A stretch of DNA of 23,827 nucleotides from the NCBI GenBank assembly GCA_029974275.1, contig JARKSN010000304.1, positions 1 through 23,827 on the forward strand, read 5' to 3'. This DNA is from Candidatus Hydrogenedentota bacterium (lineage in GTDB: Bacteria; Hydrogenedentota; Hydrogenedentia; Hydrogenedentales; SLHB01). Both the position numbers and the translations under genes were made by a program. Within the stretch, counting starts at the first letter, position 1; every line of letters starts with the position of its first letter. Shown piece after piece: positions 178 to 22,286 of the stretch. The notes under the pieces are model-generated. The model ran no database searches, had not been told where the DNA came from, and worked only from the letters and a program-made list of their open reading frames with translations.

Positions 178-645
178 TCAAAGACACCTAACGACATGAC
201 GCTGACCTTTCGCAAGCTGCCCATAGAGAAATGCAACGATATGAGCTGTTTTGGGAGCGATACCGAGTTTCTTCAGTTCGCCCGCGATGCGGCGGTAGCC
301 CCATGCAATATTTTCTCGGGCTATGGAGCCGACCAGTCGCCGCAGTTCGTCCACAATGCGTGGCCACCCCGAGCGCTTGAAAGTGAATCCTCCGCGAGTC
401 AGGGACAACCACCGTCGGTAGGTCGCCGGTCTGACCTCGTCGACCAGACCGTCCACCTCATGGTCGAAGGCGGCTCCCCAGCGGAGGAGTTCGGCCTTCT
501 CTGCCGGAGTCGGGACAATTCGCTCGACTGGGATACGCGCGCGCAAAATGCGCAGTTGCGCCCGCATGAACTGGACGTGGGTGTTATGACGGGGCAGGAA
601 AAAGTGCAGGGCCAGACCCAAGACCACCTGAAAAACACGCTCCAA
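178..645 (-). mobile_element. Truncated integrase-core-type transposase (N-terminal/HTH part only)
   Basis: VRPATYRRW...GWPRI...IARENIAWGYRRIAGELKKLGI is the hallmark N-terminus of IS3/IS481-like integrase-core transposases. Similarity stops near 259 and no DDE domain follows. Probable TTG start at 645 with GAAGGA upstream. Confidence 0.75.
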
Positions 646-844
646 ACGGGACCGTCCTTCCCAAAAACGAAATACTCGCAACTCCTTGGTCGGCAACCGT
701 TTGCCAACATGCGTATATTTTGGAACGCTCAGGAAAGCGAATGCAAACGCCTCGCCGGGGCGGATAGGCAGGGAATGGCTACCTAAAACAACCGAGGTGA
801 CTTGAAACGGAGATTTTCCGACTCCAGAACGGTACGCTCCAGTG

Positions 845-4245: not shown

Positions 4246-7200
4246 ACAGCTTCAACCTTACCGATTGGGCGCTGAAACATCGCCAAATCATCCTCTATTT
4301 TGTCGTAATGATCTTTGTGGGAGGCGCCATTTCCTATTTGCGACTCGGCCGGATGGAAGACCCGGATTTCACTATTCGCAAGATGGTCGTAGCCGCAGTT
4401 TGGCCGGGGGCGAGCGCGCACGATGTTGAAGAGCAGTTGACGGATAAGCTTGAGAAGAAGCTCCAGGACACGCCCGGCCTGGATTACCTGGACAGCTATT
4501 CCTATCCCGGAAAGTCCGTGATTTACGTGACTCTGAAGGATGACGCTGTGACTGGAGAGCAGACCCGCGCGATTTGGCAGGAAGTTCGCAACATGGTCAA
4601 CGACGTCCGGCACACCTTGCCGCAAGGCGTGATCGGCCCATTCTTCAACGACCGTTTTGACGATGTGTTCGGCTGTATCTACGCGCTTACGTCCGACGGG
4701 TTTTCCATGGAGGAAATGCGGGCCACGATGGAACGAATCCGCCGGATCGCGCTGGCGGTGCCGAGTGTGCGGAAGGCGGACCTCATTGGCGTTCAGCCCG
4801 AGAAGGTTTACATCGAAATCGACAACGCCAAACTGGCCGCATTCGGAGTTGATCCCGCGCTGGTGTTGCATACCATCCAGGCCCAAAATGCGATGACCCC
4901 ATCCGGAATGCTCGAAACCTCCACAGACAATGTATATCTGCGCGTGTCCGGCATGTTTGACAGCGTGGATAGCCTGCGCGACCTCCCGATTCGCGTCGCG
5001 GGAATGGCGTTTCGCCTGAGCGACGTCGCCAAGATTGAGCGCGCGTATGCGGAACCCGCCGAACCAAAATTTTTCTTCAATGGGCGTCCCGCCATCGGGC
5101 TCGCGATTTCCATGGAGAAAGGTGGAAACGTCATTACGTTGGGCAAGAACCTTGAAGCCATGGTGGCCGAGGTTAAGAGCCAGCTTCCCCAGGGGATGGA
5201 ACTTTCGACGGTTGCGAACCAGCCGGAGGTCGTGAAGGAATCCATCAACGAGTTTGTGAAATCACTGGCCGAAGCTGTCGGGATCGTCCTGATCGTGAGC
5301 TTTATCAGCCTCGGGTTGCGTTCGGGCGTGGTTGTCGCGCTCTGCATTCCGCTGGTGATCTCGGGCGTATTCGTCTGCATGAACATGCTCGGGATTGACT
5401 TGCACAAGATTTCGCTGGGCGCGCTGATCATCGCTTTGGGCCTTCTCGTGGACGACGCCATCATCGCCATTGAGATGATGATTGTGAAACTCGAGCAGGG
5501 ATGGGACCGCACAAAGGCGGCGTCCTTCGCGTATACAGCGACGGCCTATCCACGGCTAACCGGCGCATTGGTCACCTGCGCAGGTTTTATCCCAGTTGGC
5601 TTTTCAAAAGGGACTGCATCCGAGTTTGTCGGCAGCATTTTCTCCGTGGTTACGATTGCGCTCTTGCTTTCATGGGTGGTTGCCGGCGCGGTAACGCCAC
5701 TGTTGGGATACTACCTGGTGCGGATAAAATCCGCTGCGGGAGGCGGCGAACACCACGATATCTATGATACCCCCTTCTACCGCTTCTTCAGGCGTATGTT
5801 GGCATGGTGTCTGCGGCACAGGGGGCTGGTGCTTGTTGTCACCGTATTAAGTTTTGTGGGCGCGGTCTTCCTGATGGGCAAAGTCCAGCAGGAATTTTTC
5901 CCGGCCTCTGCCCGCCCCGAATTGATTGTCGATATGCGGTTGCCTCAAGGCGCCTCCATAAAAGCCACTGAGGAAAGGGCATTGGCTTTTGCCAAACGTT
6001 TTGAGGGCGACCCGACGATTGCGAACTACTCGCTGTATGTCGGCGCCGGTGTGCCGCGTTTCGTGCTGACTTCCGATCCCGCTGACCCGGACACCAATTT
6101 CGCCCAAGTCGTTTTTGTTGCGAAAGACCGTGAGTCCCGCATCGCGTTGACGAAAAAGGTTAACCAGACGCTACAGAACGAATTCCCCGAGATCCAAGGC
6201 AACATAAAACTGATCCAAACCGGGCCCCCTAACTCGTATCCCGTGATGCTCCGCGTGAGCGGTTACGAGCATGATAAGGTGCGCGATCTGGCGGAACAGG
6301 TGTGCAACGTCATGAGAGCTGACGCCAATTTGTGGAACGTCAACATGAATTGGCACGAGAAAAGCAAGATCATGCGCATTGCGGTCGACCAGGACAAGGC
6401 GCGGATACAGGGCGTTGACAGTCAGACGTTGGCGCTGACCCTGCAAACTCTCATTTCCGGTGCGGCCCTCAGCGAATACCGTGAAGCGGATAAGACGGTC
6501 GCCATTGTATTCCGTGTCGGCGAGCGGAACCGGACTGATTTAGCAAATATCAGGGACTTGGCTATTTCGATTGGAAACGGGAAATCGGTCGCACTGGATC
6601 AGATCGCGACCATCAAATTCGAAGCCGAAGACGGTCTTATTCGCCGAAGGGACCTTAAACCCGCCATTACTGTGCAGGCCAACACGATTGACGGGGTGCT
6701 GGGCAACGATGCCACGAAGGCACTCTACGCCCGCTTGAGTTCGCTTCGGGCTTCATTGCCGCCCGGCTACGCCATTACCATCGGCGGTCCGCTGGAAGAC
6801 AGCAACAAGGCCACCAACTGGTTAATGCAACCTGTTCCGGCGATGTTCGCGGTGATTTTTACGCTGTTGATGTTCCAGTTGAAAAGCATTCCCAAAATGG
6901 TCTTGACGCTGCTGACAGCGCCGCTCGGCATCATCGGTGTCAGCATCAGCCTGCTCGCAACGGGAAGACCAATGGGCTTTGTCGTGCAACTCGGGATTCT
7001 GGCGCTGGCAGGGATCATCATGCGCAACTCCGTGATCCTCATTGATCAAATTGACCAACAACTAGCGGCCGGTCAATCGCCGTGGGATGCAGTTTTGAAC
7101 GCGACCGTGCTCCGCTTTCGCCCTATCATGCTGACGGCCATCGCGGCCATCCTGGGGATGATTCCGCTGATCTCCAGCGTCTTTTGGGGGCCCATGGCCA

Positions 7201-7557: not shown

Positions 7558-7989
7558 ATGCAAACGAACCATCCCTCAGAACCACTGGTCGACGTGGCAG
7601 AGGCAGGGCCAATTACCGTGGTTTCCATCCGAGCGGCCTCGTTGACGGACACGAAGTTAATGACACAAATTGCCCAAGAGGTTCGCGCCATCTCCACGCG
7701 GAACCAGCCGCCAAATATCCTGCTCGATTTCCACTGCGTGACACGCATCTCAATCGACTTTCTTGACAAAATGAGAACGGTCGTGGAGGAAATCGAGAAG
7801 CGCGGCGGAACTATTCAGTGCTGTTCCTTGAGAGAGGAGATGCGGGCGATTCTGAAGATCCTGGGCGTTGATCCTCGCTATGTTGGCCACTCCGTTCAAC
7901 ACGCGGTGATGAGGTATGCGACATGGCTTGAGAAGCGGAAGCAAATCACGCCGAAAGCGGCTATTTCGAAATGGCACGCCCTTATGTAG
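7558..7989 (+). CDS. STAS-domain (anti-sigma-factor antagonist-like) protein
   Basis: NILLDFHCVTRISIDFLDKM...IEKRGGTIQCCSLREEMRAILKILG matches the STAS pattern; AAAGGAG RBS. Confidence 0.75.
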   Translation: MQTNHPSEPLVDVAEAGPITVVSIRAASLTDTKLMTQIAQEVRAISTRNQPPNILLDFHCVTRISIDFLDKMRTVVEEIEKRGGTIQCCSLREEMRAILKILGVDPRYVGHSVQHAVMRYATWLEKRKQITPKAAISKWHALM

Positions 7990-8149: not shown

Positions 8150-9574
8150 ATGAGCGGGAAGACCTTTCAGTCGGCGGAGGTTCATGCACCTATGTTGTTG
8201 GCGTTGCTGGCGCGGCATCGATCCCGTAGTCTCTCGCGGAGACGTATCCTTCACAGTCTTCCCTTTACCCTTGCCGCTGTGTTCGTCTTTTCCCCTGCCA
8301 TTGACACTTTCTGTTTTGCTGAGTCCATGTCGTTTGACGAAGCAGTGAAATCAATGAAGGCGAAGAATGAAACGCTCATGGCGTCGCAGGACGATATTAA
8401 CCAGCGGCAGGCAGAGCAGAAAGCGGCGAAAGGGCTGCGAGGGCCGAAGGCGGAGCTGGACTTCAAATATACCTTCCTTGATGACCCTGTAAAAGTGAGC
8501 TTGGGTCCTCTCGAACTTGAGGTACAGAAAAAGAGTTATGCCAAGGGAAAGGTCACGGTCACGCAGCCAATTTACGCAGGAGGCAGAATAAGGGCGGCGA
8601 ACCGCGCGGCCTCGGCAGGGACCGCGGAAGCCGTAGCGCAAAAGGCGGTTACAGAAAACCAACTAGTCGCCGAGTTGGCGCGGCGGTATTACGGATTGTG
8701 CTTGGCGCGGTGCAACGAGGAGGTTCAGGCGCAAAAACTGGACACGATGAAGAAGCACACCTCGCGGGCGAAGCGGTTGATGGACGAGGGGATTGTCGCG
8801 CGGGTGGAGTACCTGAATGCGGATGTTGCACAGGCAAACGCGGAAACCGATTTGGCAGCCGCGAAGCGTGATATTTCGATCATTTCCGAAGGATTGTCAA
8901 ACATCCTGGTGTCGCCGGAACCAGTGGATCCGACCTCGTCGCTGTTCATGGCGGCGGCATTGGAGCCCTGCGAGACTTTCCAGTCTTACGTAGACGCCAA
9001 CCATCCGATCTTGAAGGTGCTGGCAGCGAAACATGATATGGCCCATCAGGGCGTAAAGGTCGAGGAGGCAGATCGAAAACCTACCGTCTATGCCTTTGGA
9101 ATACACGAGCTTGTAACCTCTGACTTGACCATGATGGACCCGAAGTGGGCCGTAGGCGTGGGAGTTCAGTACACCCTGTTTGACGGATTCCGAGCAAAAA
9201 ACAAGGCGACAGCGGCGAGATCCGTCGAAACAAAGGTTCAGCACCTGACACAGAAGGCCGCACGAGACCTGAAGAGCCTTGTGCTGAAGCGATATCAGGA
9301 GATGGAGAAAGCCCGCGAGCAGTTCGAATCGTATGATCGAACGCTGGAGTTGGCCAAGGAAAACCTGCGCGTGCGGGCGCACGCATTTGAGGAAGGTATG
9401 GCGACCTCGCTTGAGGTAATCGATGCAACACTATCTCTGTCACGGGCACAGTTGGGGCGGTTGAAGGCTGCCTTTGATTTTGACGACGCAATGTTTCAAC
9501 TGCTGGAGGCAAGCGGACAGACAGGATCGTATGCCGAATATTTAGCGAATACTACCGGGGTAGGAGAAGGATGA
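8150..9574 (+). CDS. TolC-family outer-membrane efflux protein
   Basis: VTQPIYAGGRI, ELARRYY, VQYTLFDGF, AFEEGMATSLEVIDA repeats. Start 8150 has AAGGAG upstream (the ORF track uses 8126). Confidence 0.93.
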   Translation: MSGKTFQSAEVHAPMLLALLARHRSRSLSRRRILHSLPFTLAAVFVFSPAIDTFCFAESMSFDEAVKSMKAKNETLMASQDDINQRQAEQKAAKGLRGPKAELDFKYTFLDDPVKVSLGPLELEVQKKSYAKGKVTVTQPIYAGGRIRAANRAASAGTAEAVAQKAVTENQLVAELARRYYGLCLARCNEEVQAQKLDTMKKHTSRAKRLMDEGIVARVEYLNADVAQANAETDLAAAKRDISIISEGLSNILVSPEPVDPTSSLFMAAALEPCETFQSYVDANHPILKVLAAKHDMAHQGVKVEEADRKPTVYAFGIHELVTSDLTMMDPKWAVGVGVQYTLFDGFRAKNKATAARSVETKVQHLTQKAARDLKSLVLKRYQEMEKAREQFESYDRTLELAKENLRVRAHAFEEGMATSLEVIDATLSLSRAQLGRLKAAFDFDDAMFQLLEASGQTGSYAEYLANTTGVGEG

Positions 9575-9613
9575 ATAGCAATTCGATTCTTCGACCGGTC
9601 TCCAAGTACGACC

Positions 9614-9772
9614 TGCTGCTCGTTGCGGAAAGAAATGCGAGAGGTTTTGAAACTCCTGGGAGTGGATGTTTTGTATGCCGGCCACTCCGTCAAGCACGCG
9701 GTGACGAGATATAGGGCCTCTCTTGAGAAACAAAAGAAATCGCAACCAAGGATTGCAATATAGGAATGGCAT
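9614..9772 (+). pseudogene. Degenerate paralogous copy of the C-terminal part of the STAS gene
   Basis: Translates as CCSLRKEMREVLKLLGVDVLYAGHSVKHAVTRYRASLEKQKKSQPRIAI*EWH vs CCSLREEMRAILKILGVDPRYVGHSVQHAVMRYATWLEKRKQITPKAAISKWH (7819 onward), 33/53 identical by hand count. The 5' half is missing and TAG at 9761 aligns with TCG. Confidence 0.85.
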
Positions 9773-9933
9773 TCCGATCCGTATGAGGAGCACTGCGATG
9801 AGTGGGGAGGTTTTGAGACCTGTGATACCGCGAACGAGCACAAGAAGGCCAAGCGAATCTTTTGCGGACTGTTCGGCGCGTTTTCCAACAACACGGACTA
9901 CCAGCGTCGAAGGGCTAATCGGAGACGACGAAT

Positions 9934-21418: not shown

Positions 21419-21446
21419 TTGAGAAAAGCGGACACTGCGATATAAT
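21419..21446 (+). promoter_or_regulatory. Sigma-70 promoter for the structured leader/NYN gene
   Basis: TTGAGA-N16-TATAAT. Confidence 0.7.
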
Positions 21447-21451
21447 CATTG

Positions 21452-21521
21452 AAGATACGTGGCCCCCTGGTAGTACGCGCCCCCTTTCATTGCGGGGTAT
21501 GCCGAGCCCAGGGGGTATCTT
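21452..21521 (+). ncRNA. Putative structured RNA/5' leader (nested multi-stem hairpin) upstream of the NYN gene
   Basis: AAGATAC(21452-58)/GTATCTT(21515-21); CCCCTGG(21464-70)/CCAGGGG(21508-14); inner CCCC/GGGG around TTTCATTGC. Begins at the predicted TSS and ends just before the SD-like TAAGGTGG. Confidence 0.55.
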
Positions 21522-21535
21522 GTAAGGTGGAATGT

Positions 21536-22249
21536 ATGCCGACGGCTATTCTGATCGACGGTGATTTCTGTCTCCGAAGGTACCGGTACCTGTTTGGCGT
21601 ACAACCTCCCAGCAAGGCGGCACACGACATTCACCGAATGTGCTTGGCCCTCTCGAATCGGCCTCACGAACAAAACGGGCAACAAGTCTGCGGCTTCCAC
21701 TGAAAGAAAAGACCTTTATCGCATCTTTTTCTACGATTGCCCGCCTCTTTCGAAAAGAGCACACAATCCAGTTACTCAAAAGCCGATCGATTTCTCCACG
21801 ACTCGCACGGCCGTGTGGCGATTAGAGTTTCACGACGAGCTTCGAAAGCGTCGCAAGGTTGCCCTGCGATTGGGGTACTTGAATGAGCGCAGCGGCCATT
21901 GGACGATTCGTCCGAAGATACTGAAGAGCCTCCTGGCGGGTGACAAGAGCCTCGCCGATCTGCAGGAAGATGACGTCACGTACGATGTGCAACAAAAGGG
22001 GTCGACATGCGCATCGGGTTGGACATCGCTGCGATGGCCTTTAAGAAGCAAGTCGACCAAATTGTGCTCGTATCTGGCGACAGCGATTTTGTGCCCGCCG
22101 CAAAGTTGGCGCGCCGAGAAGGAATTGATTTTATCCTCGATCCTCTCTGGGCTTCTATCCGCTCAGACCTCATCGAGCATGTGGACGGCATACGAACCGT
22201 TTGGCCGCGTACGTCGTCCGACGACAGAAGAAATGTCTCCCGGCCTTGA
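21536..22249 (+). pseudogene. NYN/PIN (LabA/DUF88) domain nuclease, split by two frameshifts
   Basis: Three consecutive pieces: MPTAILIDGDF..; KDLYRIFFYDCPPL..VALRLG..QQKG; VDMRIGLDIA..IVLVSGDSDFVPAAKLARREGIDFILDP. Shifts at about 21645-21700 and at the G-run 21998-22001. Confidence 0.88.
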
Positions 22250-22257
22250 CTCAGGGT

Positions 22258-22286
22258 TTGACATGCCCAGCATGCCGGGGCATAAT
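22258..22286 (+). promoter_or_regulatory. Sigma-70 promoter for PMM/PGM
   Basis: TTGACA-N17-CATAAT. Confidence 0.75.

What the first reader, a model, noticed from the sequence alone, without database searches (positions are those of the whole stretch)
21419..22249. Self-contained promoter + structured RNA + NYN/PIN nuclease islet: candidate RNA-controlled toxin or defence module
Seen: a near-consensus promoter (TTGAGA-N16-TATAAT), then a 70-nt segment starting at the predicted TSS that folds into three nested stems. It ends two bases before the SD of a lone NYN/LabA-DUF88 gene, sandwiched between two metabolic genes, with no protein antitoxin next to it. Known: NYN domains are PIN-fold nucleases, and type III TA and AbiF-type systems pair an RNase with an upstream cis-encoded structured RNA. 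Inference: this may be an uncharacterised RNase-RNA pair (RNA antitoxin, self-cleaved autoregulatory leader or abortive-infection unit).
Basis: partly seen in the sequence, partly recalled or inferred. Interest (0 to 1): 0.8.

Follow-up and report, generated by a model that had tools for sequence, protein, structure and literature searches.

The report
Widespread RNA-paired NYN nuclease cassette
A conserved ~55-base RNA hairpin sits directly in front of one family of predicted RNA-cutting enzymes across many bacterial phyla, prophages and plasmids, and likely acts as the enzyme's RNA antidote in an apparently undescribed toxin-antitoxin pair, although the copy of the gene in this genome is broken.

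Summary
Promoter, hairpin and NYN gene are present as described. However, the gene here carries two frameshifts, reproduced in other sequencing runs, so it is a pseudogene, and the outermost of the "three stems" is local. The core hairpin is a real RNA family. It lies within 200 nt upstream of 153 of 158 homologous NYN genes from many phyla and prophages, all 14 modelled pairs covary, and a U-tract follows in 128 of 134 copies. Searching from the RNA side, 25 of 32 hairpins have the gene or part of it downstream (0 of 62 chance matches). The Staphylococcus orphan sRNA Teg147 (Rfam RF03535) belongs to the family, and its internal loop is a sarcin-ricin-type motif. The protein keeps four invariant aspartates, is basic, has no conserved protein partner, and often sits beside prophage integrases. 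Best reading: a type III-like toxin-antitoxin unit with a PIN/NYN-fold toxin, working like AbiF/RCd22 but not homologous to it. Binding, toxicity and defence are untested. I found no description in print. The scan's earlier notes held no sequence match to this RNA; one note describes another NYN leader hairpin (not compared).

The parts
21419..21446 (+). sigma-70-type promoter (-35 TTGAGA, 16 nt, -10 TATAAT); start of transcription inferred near 21452-21453
   Evidence: 11/12; promoter-like sites enriched upstream of homologous hairpins, 84 of 132 vs 26 shuffled
21452..21524 (+). the RNA (candidate antitoxin / terminated leader), member of a family that includes Rfam TEG147
   Evidence: model R1 hit 62 bits (window was in the training set); family evidence
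21462..21516 (+). P1 helix (21462-21470 with 21508-21516), which doubles as the terminator stem in homologues
   Evidence: 8 of 8 modelled P1 pairs show double-sided changes, 95% of cells paired (set pre-selected for pairing), 96%
21471..21507 (+). asymmetric internal loop UAGUA(C) / (C)GAGC (21471-21476 and 21503-21507), sarcin-ricin/bulged-G-like, closed by two G-C pairs; then the P2 helix and an apical loop with a conserved AU (21489-21490)
   Evidence: AGUA in 80 of 134 and GA in 98 of 134 non-redundant copies; loop AU at a fixed distance in 124 of 134; JAR3D scores the TEG147 loop as a strong 7x6 sarcin-ricin match (PMC13085918)
21516..21523 (+). interrupted U-tract (TATCTTGT), a weak version of the terminator tail of the family
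   Evidence: 128 of 134 copies have 5 or more T in the 9 nt after P1; not called as a terminator by the scanner
21524..21530 (+). Shine-Dalgarno sequence
21536..22249 (+). NYN/LabA-DUF88 nuclease pseudogene (family phrog_5783): pieces 21536-21670, 21690-22004 and 21989-22249; first break near 21652-21690, second in the G-run near 21997-22001
   Evidence: breaks reproduced in other runs; GC3 0.60-0.67 vs 0.78-0.82 in flanking genes
22258..22286 (+). separate promoter-like site (TTGACA-17-CATAAT) for the downstream phosphomannomutase gene; marks the edge of the cassette

Best explanation
This is a decayed copy of a widespread, self-contained two-part cassette in which a conserved RNA hairpin precedes a predicted NYN (PIN-fold) ribonuclease gene, and it likely works as a type III-like toxin-antitoxin unit. 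Shown: the pairing of RNA and gene, the covarying structure, the U-tract, the invariant acidic active-site residues, the lack of a conserved protein partner, and the mobile, often prophage, location. Inferred: one promoter makes an abundant ~60-70-nt RNA that ends at the U-tract. Occasional read-through makes the nuclease mRNA, so RNA stays in excess. The RNA binds the basic nuclease through the bulged-G internal loop and the AU-containing single strands and keeps it off. When transcription of the RNA stops (phage infection, loss of the element), the nuclease would be freed to cut host RNA, giving abortive infection or addiction. In this genome the gene is frameshifted, so only the RNA can remain.
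For: Gene to RNA: model hit within 200 nt upstream in 76 of 79 genome loci and 77 of 79 viral loci; held-out 37 of 40 and 50 of 52. Four of the five misses are an IS-separated RNA (L054) or divergent hairpins (L071, L093, L095). RNA to gene: of 32 evaluable hairpins found by DNA pattern alone, 22 have a full gene and 3 a partial one; 0 of 62 non-hairpin matches do. Whole genomes: the same 4 of 41 relatives carry both, adjacent; in a second family all 5 full-length genes among 150 scored genomes have the RNA adjacent. Covariation: 14 of 14 pairs with double changes, score 0.47 vs 0.18 shuffled and at most 0.19 when slid. The internal loop and the loop AU are conserved far beyond what a terminator needs. 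Protein: D8, D146, D171, D173 in 156 of 156; median pI 9.3; median net +6 in residues 57-110; fold of MARF1 NYN (Z 16.4, rmsd 2.5, 144 aligned) and 2qip (Z 16.0). No recurring protein neighbour among 142 chromosomal neighbours. 18 of 49 distinct downstream phage neighbours are integrases or recombinases; in lambda-like ev099 the gene lies between the repressor and N. The gene is repeatedly lost while the RNA stays. Teg147 is listed as a 60-nt bona fide sRNA (PMC5826253). The same layout is demonstrated for AbiF/RCd22 (PMC12373285 sections 7 and 13).
Against: No experiment shows binding, toxicity or defence. L060 has an intact gene, between purK and purC, with no hairpin upstream and no model hit in its genome. 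The RNA is single-copy and its P1 is the terminator itself, whereas RCd22 has two motifs plus a separate terminator and ToxI-type antitoxins are repeats (abstract listing). All comparative evidence fits a purely cis-acting autoregulatory leader equally well. Many copies sit between housekeeping genes rather than in defence islands. PADLOC gives only motif-level hits. The one tested bacterial NYN candidate I found (HEC-09, a different subfamily) gave no phage protection (bioRxiv 2024.01.29.577857). The alignment used 68 homologues pre-selected for good pairing out of about 160, which inflates the paired fraction; the inner P2 helix is only 62% paired as aligned.
Confidence: 0.58

Rival explanations
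1. Cis-only autoregulation: the hairpin is a terminator/leader that the nuclease binds or cuts on its own nascent mRNA to limit its synthesis; the free RNA has no antitoxin role and the nuclease is a mild RNA-turnover or processing enzyme.
For: P1 is the terminator stem and ends a median 25 nt before the start codon; a single copy per gene; conserved AU dinucleotides in two single-stranded parts could be cut sites; an RNA-less intact gene exists; RNA and protein distances correlate only modestly (Mantel rho 0.27, 121 loci).
Against: Does not explain the prophage lysogeny-slot and conjugative-plasmid location or the repeated loss of the gene with the RNA kept. In the known analogue, cis termination and trans neutralisation coexist.
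Confidence: 0.24
2. [quoted passage not shown]
For: AGUA/GA loop in most copies; TEG147 loop is a strong 7x6 sarcin-ricin match; the PIN toxins VapC20 and VapC26 cut that rRNA loop (PMC5175351 passages).
Against: 54 of 134 copies lack AGUA, notably Bacteroidota copies, and the lambda ev099 and Thermus hairpins lack it too, while the protein residues are conserved. The motif is a common RNA building block, and the JAR3D authors warn against reading toxin links into it. The fold is NYN, not VapC.
Confidence: 0.15
3. The RNA is a cofactor or sensor rather than an inhibitor: RNA and protein form a complex whose activity or specificity depends on the RNA, triggered by a phage product.
For: Near-obligate pairing and a conserved three-dimensional motif; the two AU-led single strands at either end of the helix resemble each other more than expected (bases 3-4 identical in 26% vs 11% shuffled, 17% GC-stratified), as two equivalent protein sites might require.
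Against: No variable guide-like segment; the variable part is a short loop. The flank/loop resemblance weakens after GC stratification (third base p 0.15) and kinship was not removed. The terminator layout makes RNA in excess, as for an inhibitor.
Confidence: 0.1
4. An ordinary terminator or metabolite-sensing attenuator that merely travels with the gene.
For: Hairpin plus U-tract; Rfam types TEG147 as cis-regulatory; the window hairpin is not unusually stable.
Against: Unpaired loop bases are conserved across phyla; it lies between its own promoter and one specific gene family, never ahead of a recurring metabolic gene; no alternative antiterminator fold was seen in the consensus.
Confidence: 0.06

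Closest known systems
AbiF/AbiD-F type III TA (C. difficile AbiF-RCd22; abiF motif RF03085)
   Same: Promoter, short structured RNA, intrinsic terminator, then an RNase gene made by read-through; prophage location; no protein antitoxin (PMC12373285, sections 7 and 13 read).
   Different: AbiF is a HEPN protein; this is a PIN/NYN fold. RF03085 does not match the window or 17 loci scanned. Here one hairpin is both motif and terminator.
ToxIN / CptIN / TenpIN / AbiQ type III TA
   Same: RNA gene upstream of an endoribonuclease, separated by a terminator.
   Different: Those antitoxins are tandem repeats cut into units (abstract of PMC8860590; pseudoknot fold recalled) and the toxins are ToxN-fold. 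Here there is one non-repeated hairpin and a NYN fold.
Staphylococcus sRNA Teg147 (Rfam RF03535)
   Same: Same RNA family: TEG147 passes its gathering score directly upstream of NYN homologues (L128, L142 at 58.3 bits; L173 at 80.9 bits with an intact 223-aa gene), and model R1 finds all five TEG147 loci.
   Different: Rfam covers only the staphylococcal branch (window scores 17.5 vs cut-off 56.1). No function or link to a nuclease appears in the passages I read. Four of five TEG147 loci have only a decayed N-terminal trace of the gene.
VapC20/VapC26 (PIN-domain sarcin-ricin loop nucleases, type II TA)
   Same: PIN-superfamily RNase; a sarcin-ricin-type motif is in play.
   Different: Neutralised by a VapB protein, VapC-type fold; a target for this family is unknown.
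NYN.COG1432 LabA-like proteins (PF01936; 2qip; MARF1 NYN), HEC-09 and the CRISPR-associated NYN
   Same: Fold and acidic active site.
   Different: This subfamily (phrog_5783, Campylobacter Cpp15-like) has a large basic insertion; the structural match covers only 144-152 of 215 residues. It is standalone and RNA-paired. The 2017 classification lists the group as function unknown (PMC5499597).

Membership tests
Type III toxin-antitoxin (general) | Non-coding RNA gene upstream of, and co-transcribed with, an RNase gene, with an intrinsic terminator between them | tested here: met
   153 of 158 loci; U-tract in 128 of 134; promoter enrichment. Co-transcription is inferred from the layout.
Type III toxin-antitoxin (general) | No protein antitoxin | tested here: met
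   No recurring neighbour among 142 chromosomal and 49 phage neighbours scanned; simple ORF calling
Type III toxin-antitoxin (general) | Protein is toxic and is neutralised by direct RNA binding | not testable with these tools
   No experiment; indirect only (gene decay, basic surface); L060 is a counter-example
ToxIN/CptIN/TenpIN | Antitoxin made of tandem repeats | tested here: not met
   One hairpin per gene in the alignments and model searches
ToxIN/CptIN/TenpIN | ToxN-family toxin | tested here: not met
   Protein is PF01936 NYN by sequence and by fold
AbiF / AbiD-F | HEPN (Abi_2) toxin | tested here: not met
   NYN/PIN fold with aspartate active site
AbiF / AbiD-F | abiF RNA motif RF03085 | tested here: not met
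   No hit at gathering in the window or 17 loci, none at E<=10 around the hairpin
Rfam TEG147 (RF03535) | Score above gathering threshold 56.1 | tested here: not met
   Window 17.5 bits; but homologous loci L128, L142, L173 pass, so the window RNA is a distant relative through the wider model R1
NYN / LabA-DUF88 (PF01936) | PIN-like fold with conserved acidic tetrad | tested here: met
   all four aspartates are present in the window's pieces but in different frames
Sarcin-ricin (bulged-G) internal-loop motif | AGUA opposite GAx in a 7x6 loop with the non-canonical geometry | tested here: inconclusive
   Sequence signature present in the window and 80 of 134 copies; published JAR3D match for TEG147; most copies have an extra C-C or A-C pair at the inner closure; geometry not testable
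Anti-phage defence system | Protection against phage; match to a catalogued system | tested here: inconclusive
   Only motif-level PADLOC hits; prophage cargo-slot location; no assay

The most novel reading that the evidence does not exclude
A new, phylum-spanning class of RNA-antitoxin system with a PIN/NYN-fold ribonuclease, whose single-hairpin antitoxin imitates the ribosome's sarcin-ricin loop to decoy the toxin. It is carried by temperate phages and conjugative plasmids as an abortive-infection or addiction unit, and it explains the orphan Staphylococcus sRNA Teg147 as an antitoxin that outlived its toxin.
Probability: 0.2. Interest if true: 0.93.

Novelty: new variant of a known kind. 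Interest (0 to 1): 0.8.

Why it matters
The type III systems named in the papers I read use ToxN-type or HEPN toxins (AbiQ, AbiF, AbiV). A PIN/NYN-fold RNase held by an RNA would be an independent origin of RNA antitoxins in the superfamily that otherwise uses protein antitoxins (VapBC). It gives a testable function to a large 'function unknown' NYN subfamily: at least 914 relatives at E<=0.001, at least 476 genome and 515 viral matches, 65 phage and 168 plasmid records. It widens a Staphylococcus-only Rfam family into a cross-phylum motif and gives Teg147 an origin. The unit is under 1 kb and occurs in a lambda-like coliphage, so it can be tested directly in laboratory E. coli.

Tried and rejected
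Genome-wide repeat: rejected, single copy. Assembly error behind the frameshifts: rejected. Programmed frameshifting: the second break lies at an A-AAG-GGG run that fits a slippery pattern, but a second, unrelated shift would be needed upstream, the invariant His39 is absent at the first break, and homologues are continuous (156 of 162 open); rejected. Third (outer) stem as a family feature: rejected. Known Rfam family at gathering in the window: none. Solved structure by sequence: none at E<=1. Thermodynamic significance of the single sequence: none. Expression data: no RNA run could be laid, so expression of this copy is untested; small-share runs are not used as evidence. The C. jejuni 81-176 pTet sRNA and TSS tables (PMC3656092 supplements 5 and 12) list nothing next to cpp14-cpp16. 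Direct comparison with the host's own 23S sarcin-ricin loop failed because no such stretch was found in the assembly. Coupling of the 5' AU-motif with the loop AU-motif: suggestive only. Most subscription papers are outside the library; Zilberzwige-Tal 2025 was seen only as cited by others.

Full report
OBSERVATION. The window shows a -35/-10 pair at 21419-21446 (11 of 12), a GC-rich hairpin at 21462-21516, an SD at 21524 and an ATG at 21536. It lies between an aminotransferase and a phosphomannomutase gene; the latter has its own promoter-like site at 22258. Neither promoter nor fold is significant alone (2 sites vs 1.5 expected; z -0.45 to -1.7). No Rfam family reaches gathering; the best weak hit is TEG147 at 17.5 bits. 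The hairpin and gene are single-copy in the 4.4-Mb genome.

THE GENE IS BROKEN. The NYN coding sequence is spread over three pieces. Alignment with intact relatives shows a net two-base gap near 21652-21690 and a one-base gap in the G-run near 22000. Contigs from four runs (three studies; one may be the source) agree with the window with no difference or gap. X2 spans both breaks, X3 covers the first region and X4 spans the second. So this is a real pseudogene. Its GC3 is lower than its neighbours' (0.60-0.67 vs 0.78-0.82), and only 3 of 40 relatives carry the gene, so the cassette was likely acquired. A same-family genome encodes a protein whose start matches P0049, named from Candidatus Hydrogenedentota (by eye), which suggests the host lineage.

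THE PROTEIN FAMILY. The middle piece retrieves 914 proteins at E<=0.001, nearly all PF01936, about 205-265 aa (best 120 listed). They match phrog_5783 over their length and PADLOC only at the C-terminal motif. A model of one intact member (pLDDT 87) superposes on MARF1 NYN (Z 16.4, rmsd 2.5, 144 aligned) and 2qip (Z 16.0), well above the FEN nucleases and unrelated rows. Of 162 fetched loci, 156 read open for 200 aa or more; D8, D146, D171 and D173 are invariant in all 156; median pI is 9.3. Residues 57-110 carry a median net charge of +6. Inference: an active, nucleic-acid-binding RNase.

THE RNA FAMILY. Upstream of almost every gene lies the same element: an 8-9-bp helix P1, an internal loop YAGUAM opposite CGARC, two G-C pairs, a variable P2, a loop with AU, then a U-tract. 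An alignment of the window with 68 homologues (chosen for a clear anchor match, so biased towards pairing) gave a consensus fold with all 12 pairs compensated. My 14-pair structure scored 0.47 for covariation against 0.18 shuffled (0 of 500) and at most 0.19 when slid; the viral set gave 0.49 (fitted alignment). The model R1 finds the RNA within 200 nt upstream in 76 of 79 genome loci and 77 of 79 viral loci with enough flank. For loci outside the training set the figures are 37 of 40 and 50 of 52 (threshold E<=1; Bacteroidota copies score only 16-34 bits; viral loci are partly redundant). Of the five misses, L054 has the RNA cut off by an insertion sequence, L071, L093 and L095 have divergent hairpins, and L060 has none, nor any hit in its genome. 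Among 134 non-redundant copies, 128 have 5 or more T in the next 9 nt, 80 have AGUA, 98 the opposing GA and 124 the loop AU at a fixed distance. Promoter-like sites precede 84 of 132 (26 expected), and P1 ends a median 25 nt before the start codon. More distant genes (lambda ev099, Thermus and Campylobacter plasmids) keep a hairpin with internal loops, mostly of other sequence.

THE REVERSE TEST. A DNA pattern for the loop, used without the protein, returned 28 viral and 80 metagenome loci (the latter truncated). Thirty-six are true hairpins (40 bits or more). Four lack flank. Of the other 32, 22 have a full gene right behind, 3 a deleted or split gene and 7 no profile hit (one of these shows a short N-terminal trace by eye). 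None of 62 chance matches has the gene. In whole genomes the strong RNA hits are exactly the 4 of 41 that hold the gene, plus one weak 43-nt hit. In 150 scored genomes around a Cupriavidus locus all 5 full-length genes have the RNA adjacent (one was in training), and 4 further RNAs are orphans. So the gene almost never lacks the RNA, but the RNA often outlives the gene, as in the window.

TEG147. The Rfam model of the S. aureus sRNA Teg147 passes gathering directly upstream of NYN genes in L128 and L142. Five viral-collection loci with its core pattern score 81-90 bits. One is followed by an intact 223-aa member (E 4e-85); four are followed by a short decayed trace resembling the N-terminus (read by eye). 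Liu et al. list Teg147 as a 60-nt bona fide sRNA with no validation or comment (PMC5826253, passages). The JAR3D study names its loop as a strong 7x6 sarcin-ricin match (PMC13085918, passages) and cautions that such a motif need not involve toxins. I did not inspect the HG003 chromosome itself.

CONTEXT. The nearest chromosomal neighbours (142 ORFs, NCBIfam, E<=1e-20) are unrelated housekeeping or mobile genes with no recurring partner. In phages, 18 of 49 distinct downstream neighbours are integrases or recombinases at E<=1e-15. Javan85 has it between repressor and integrase, phiE202 beside a TA pair and the integrase, and ev099 between the repressor and N, the slot of lambda rexAB (recalled). 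It is also on 168 plasmid records, 129 of them conjugative and 136 from Campylobacter.

MECHANISM. Shown: linkage, structure, terminator tail, active-site residues, absence of a protein partner, mobility, frequent decay. From the literature: in C. difficile the same layout yields an abundant short RNA, rare read-through, and direct neutralisation of the AbiF RNase in cis and in trans (PMC12373285, sections 7 and 13); AbiF, AbiQ and AbiV are the lactococcal type III cases (PMC13064643, passages). Inferred: this RNA plays the same role for a NYN RNase (0.58). A cis-only autoregulatory leader fits the comparative data as well (0.24), and the two can coexist. The sarcin-ricin decoy idea (0.15, a sub-case) rests on the loop and on VapC20/26 (PMC5175351, passages) but is weakened by copies that lack AGUA. 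Against defence: the one tested NYN candidate, HEC-09, was inactive, many copies are not in islands, and L060 lives without RNA.

MEMBERSHIP AND NOVELTY. It works like AbiF/RCd22 but fails the defining tests of AbiF (HEPN, RF03085) and of ToxIN-type families (repeats, ToxN). The protein belongs to the LabA-like NYN group listed as function unknown (PMC5499597, section 22). Ten literature searches and term searches in four RNA-discovery papers found no description of this pairing (see Tried and rejected). Unseen supplements, above all those of the 2026 intergenic-clustering preprint and Weinberg 2017, and subscription papers could contain it. The scan's own notes had no match to the RNA sequence and none by words for this family.

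VERDICT. Real, widespread and apparently undescribed RNA-nuclease pair; probably a new type III-like TA family with a new toxin fold; this particular copy is a pseudogene. Interest 0.8.

Noticed in passing
L170-L172, L174 (TEG147 at about 2464-2556): Staphylococcal Teg147 copies are followed by a decayed start of the NYN gene; the RNA is kept almost unchanged while the gene is gone, so it may still act in trans against incoming copies.
   Followed up: partly
L060:4850-5640 (Aquaspirillum serpens, between purK and purC): Intact family member with no upstream RNA and none detected in the genome; a natural test case for whether the protein is toxic.
   Followed up: partly
L054:2549-5001: Insertion sequence(s) landed between the RNA and the start codon, with a short target duplication, separating the two by 2.4 kb.
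   Followed up: partly
L114:4922-4991 and 5934-6003; G043 (L035 and L328): A prophage with a second copy of the RNA directly ahead of the integrase gene, and a genome with two intact modules carrying different RNAs.
   Followed up: partly
L093:4870-4990, L095: Enlarged variant: the same outer helix and U-tract enclose a longer, branched interior.
   Followed up: no
L051, L056, L070, L031 (about 4860-4910): Many Bacillota copies have an extra small palindrome between promoter and P1, possibly a 5' stabilising hairpin or an operator.
   Followed up: no
134 non-redundant hairpins: An AU-led 4-mer just 5' of P1 and one in the apical loop tend to resemble each other within a lineage (ATCC/ATCC, ATAG/ATAG), suggesting two equivalent binding or cutting sites; kinship not controlled.
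   Followed up: partly
P0041: A 470-aa protein with a family member joined to a type I restriction specificity domain (PF01420); may be a fusion or a gene-calling artefact.
   Followed up: no
L192/L210 downstream: A prophage slot where the deleted NYN cassette faces a convergent 182-aa ORF that by eye resembles ToxN/AbiQ-type proteins (recalled, not scanned).
   Followed up: no
window 178-696 (-): Transposase-like ORF fragment at the window start (by eye).
   Followed up: no
window 7558-7989 and 9496-9894: The STAS-like ORF and a stretch after the outer-membrane efflux gene share near-identical peptide text on the opposite strand, suggesting a local duplication around the RND efflux cluster.
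   Followed up: no
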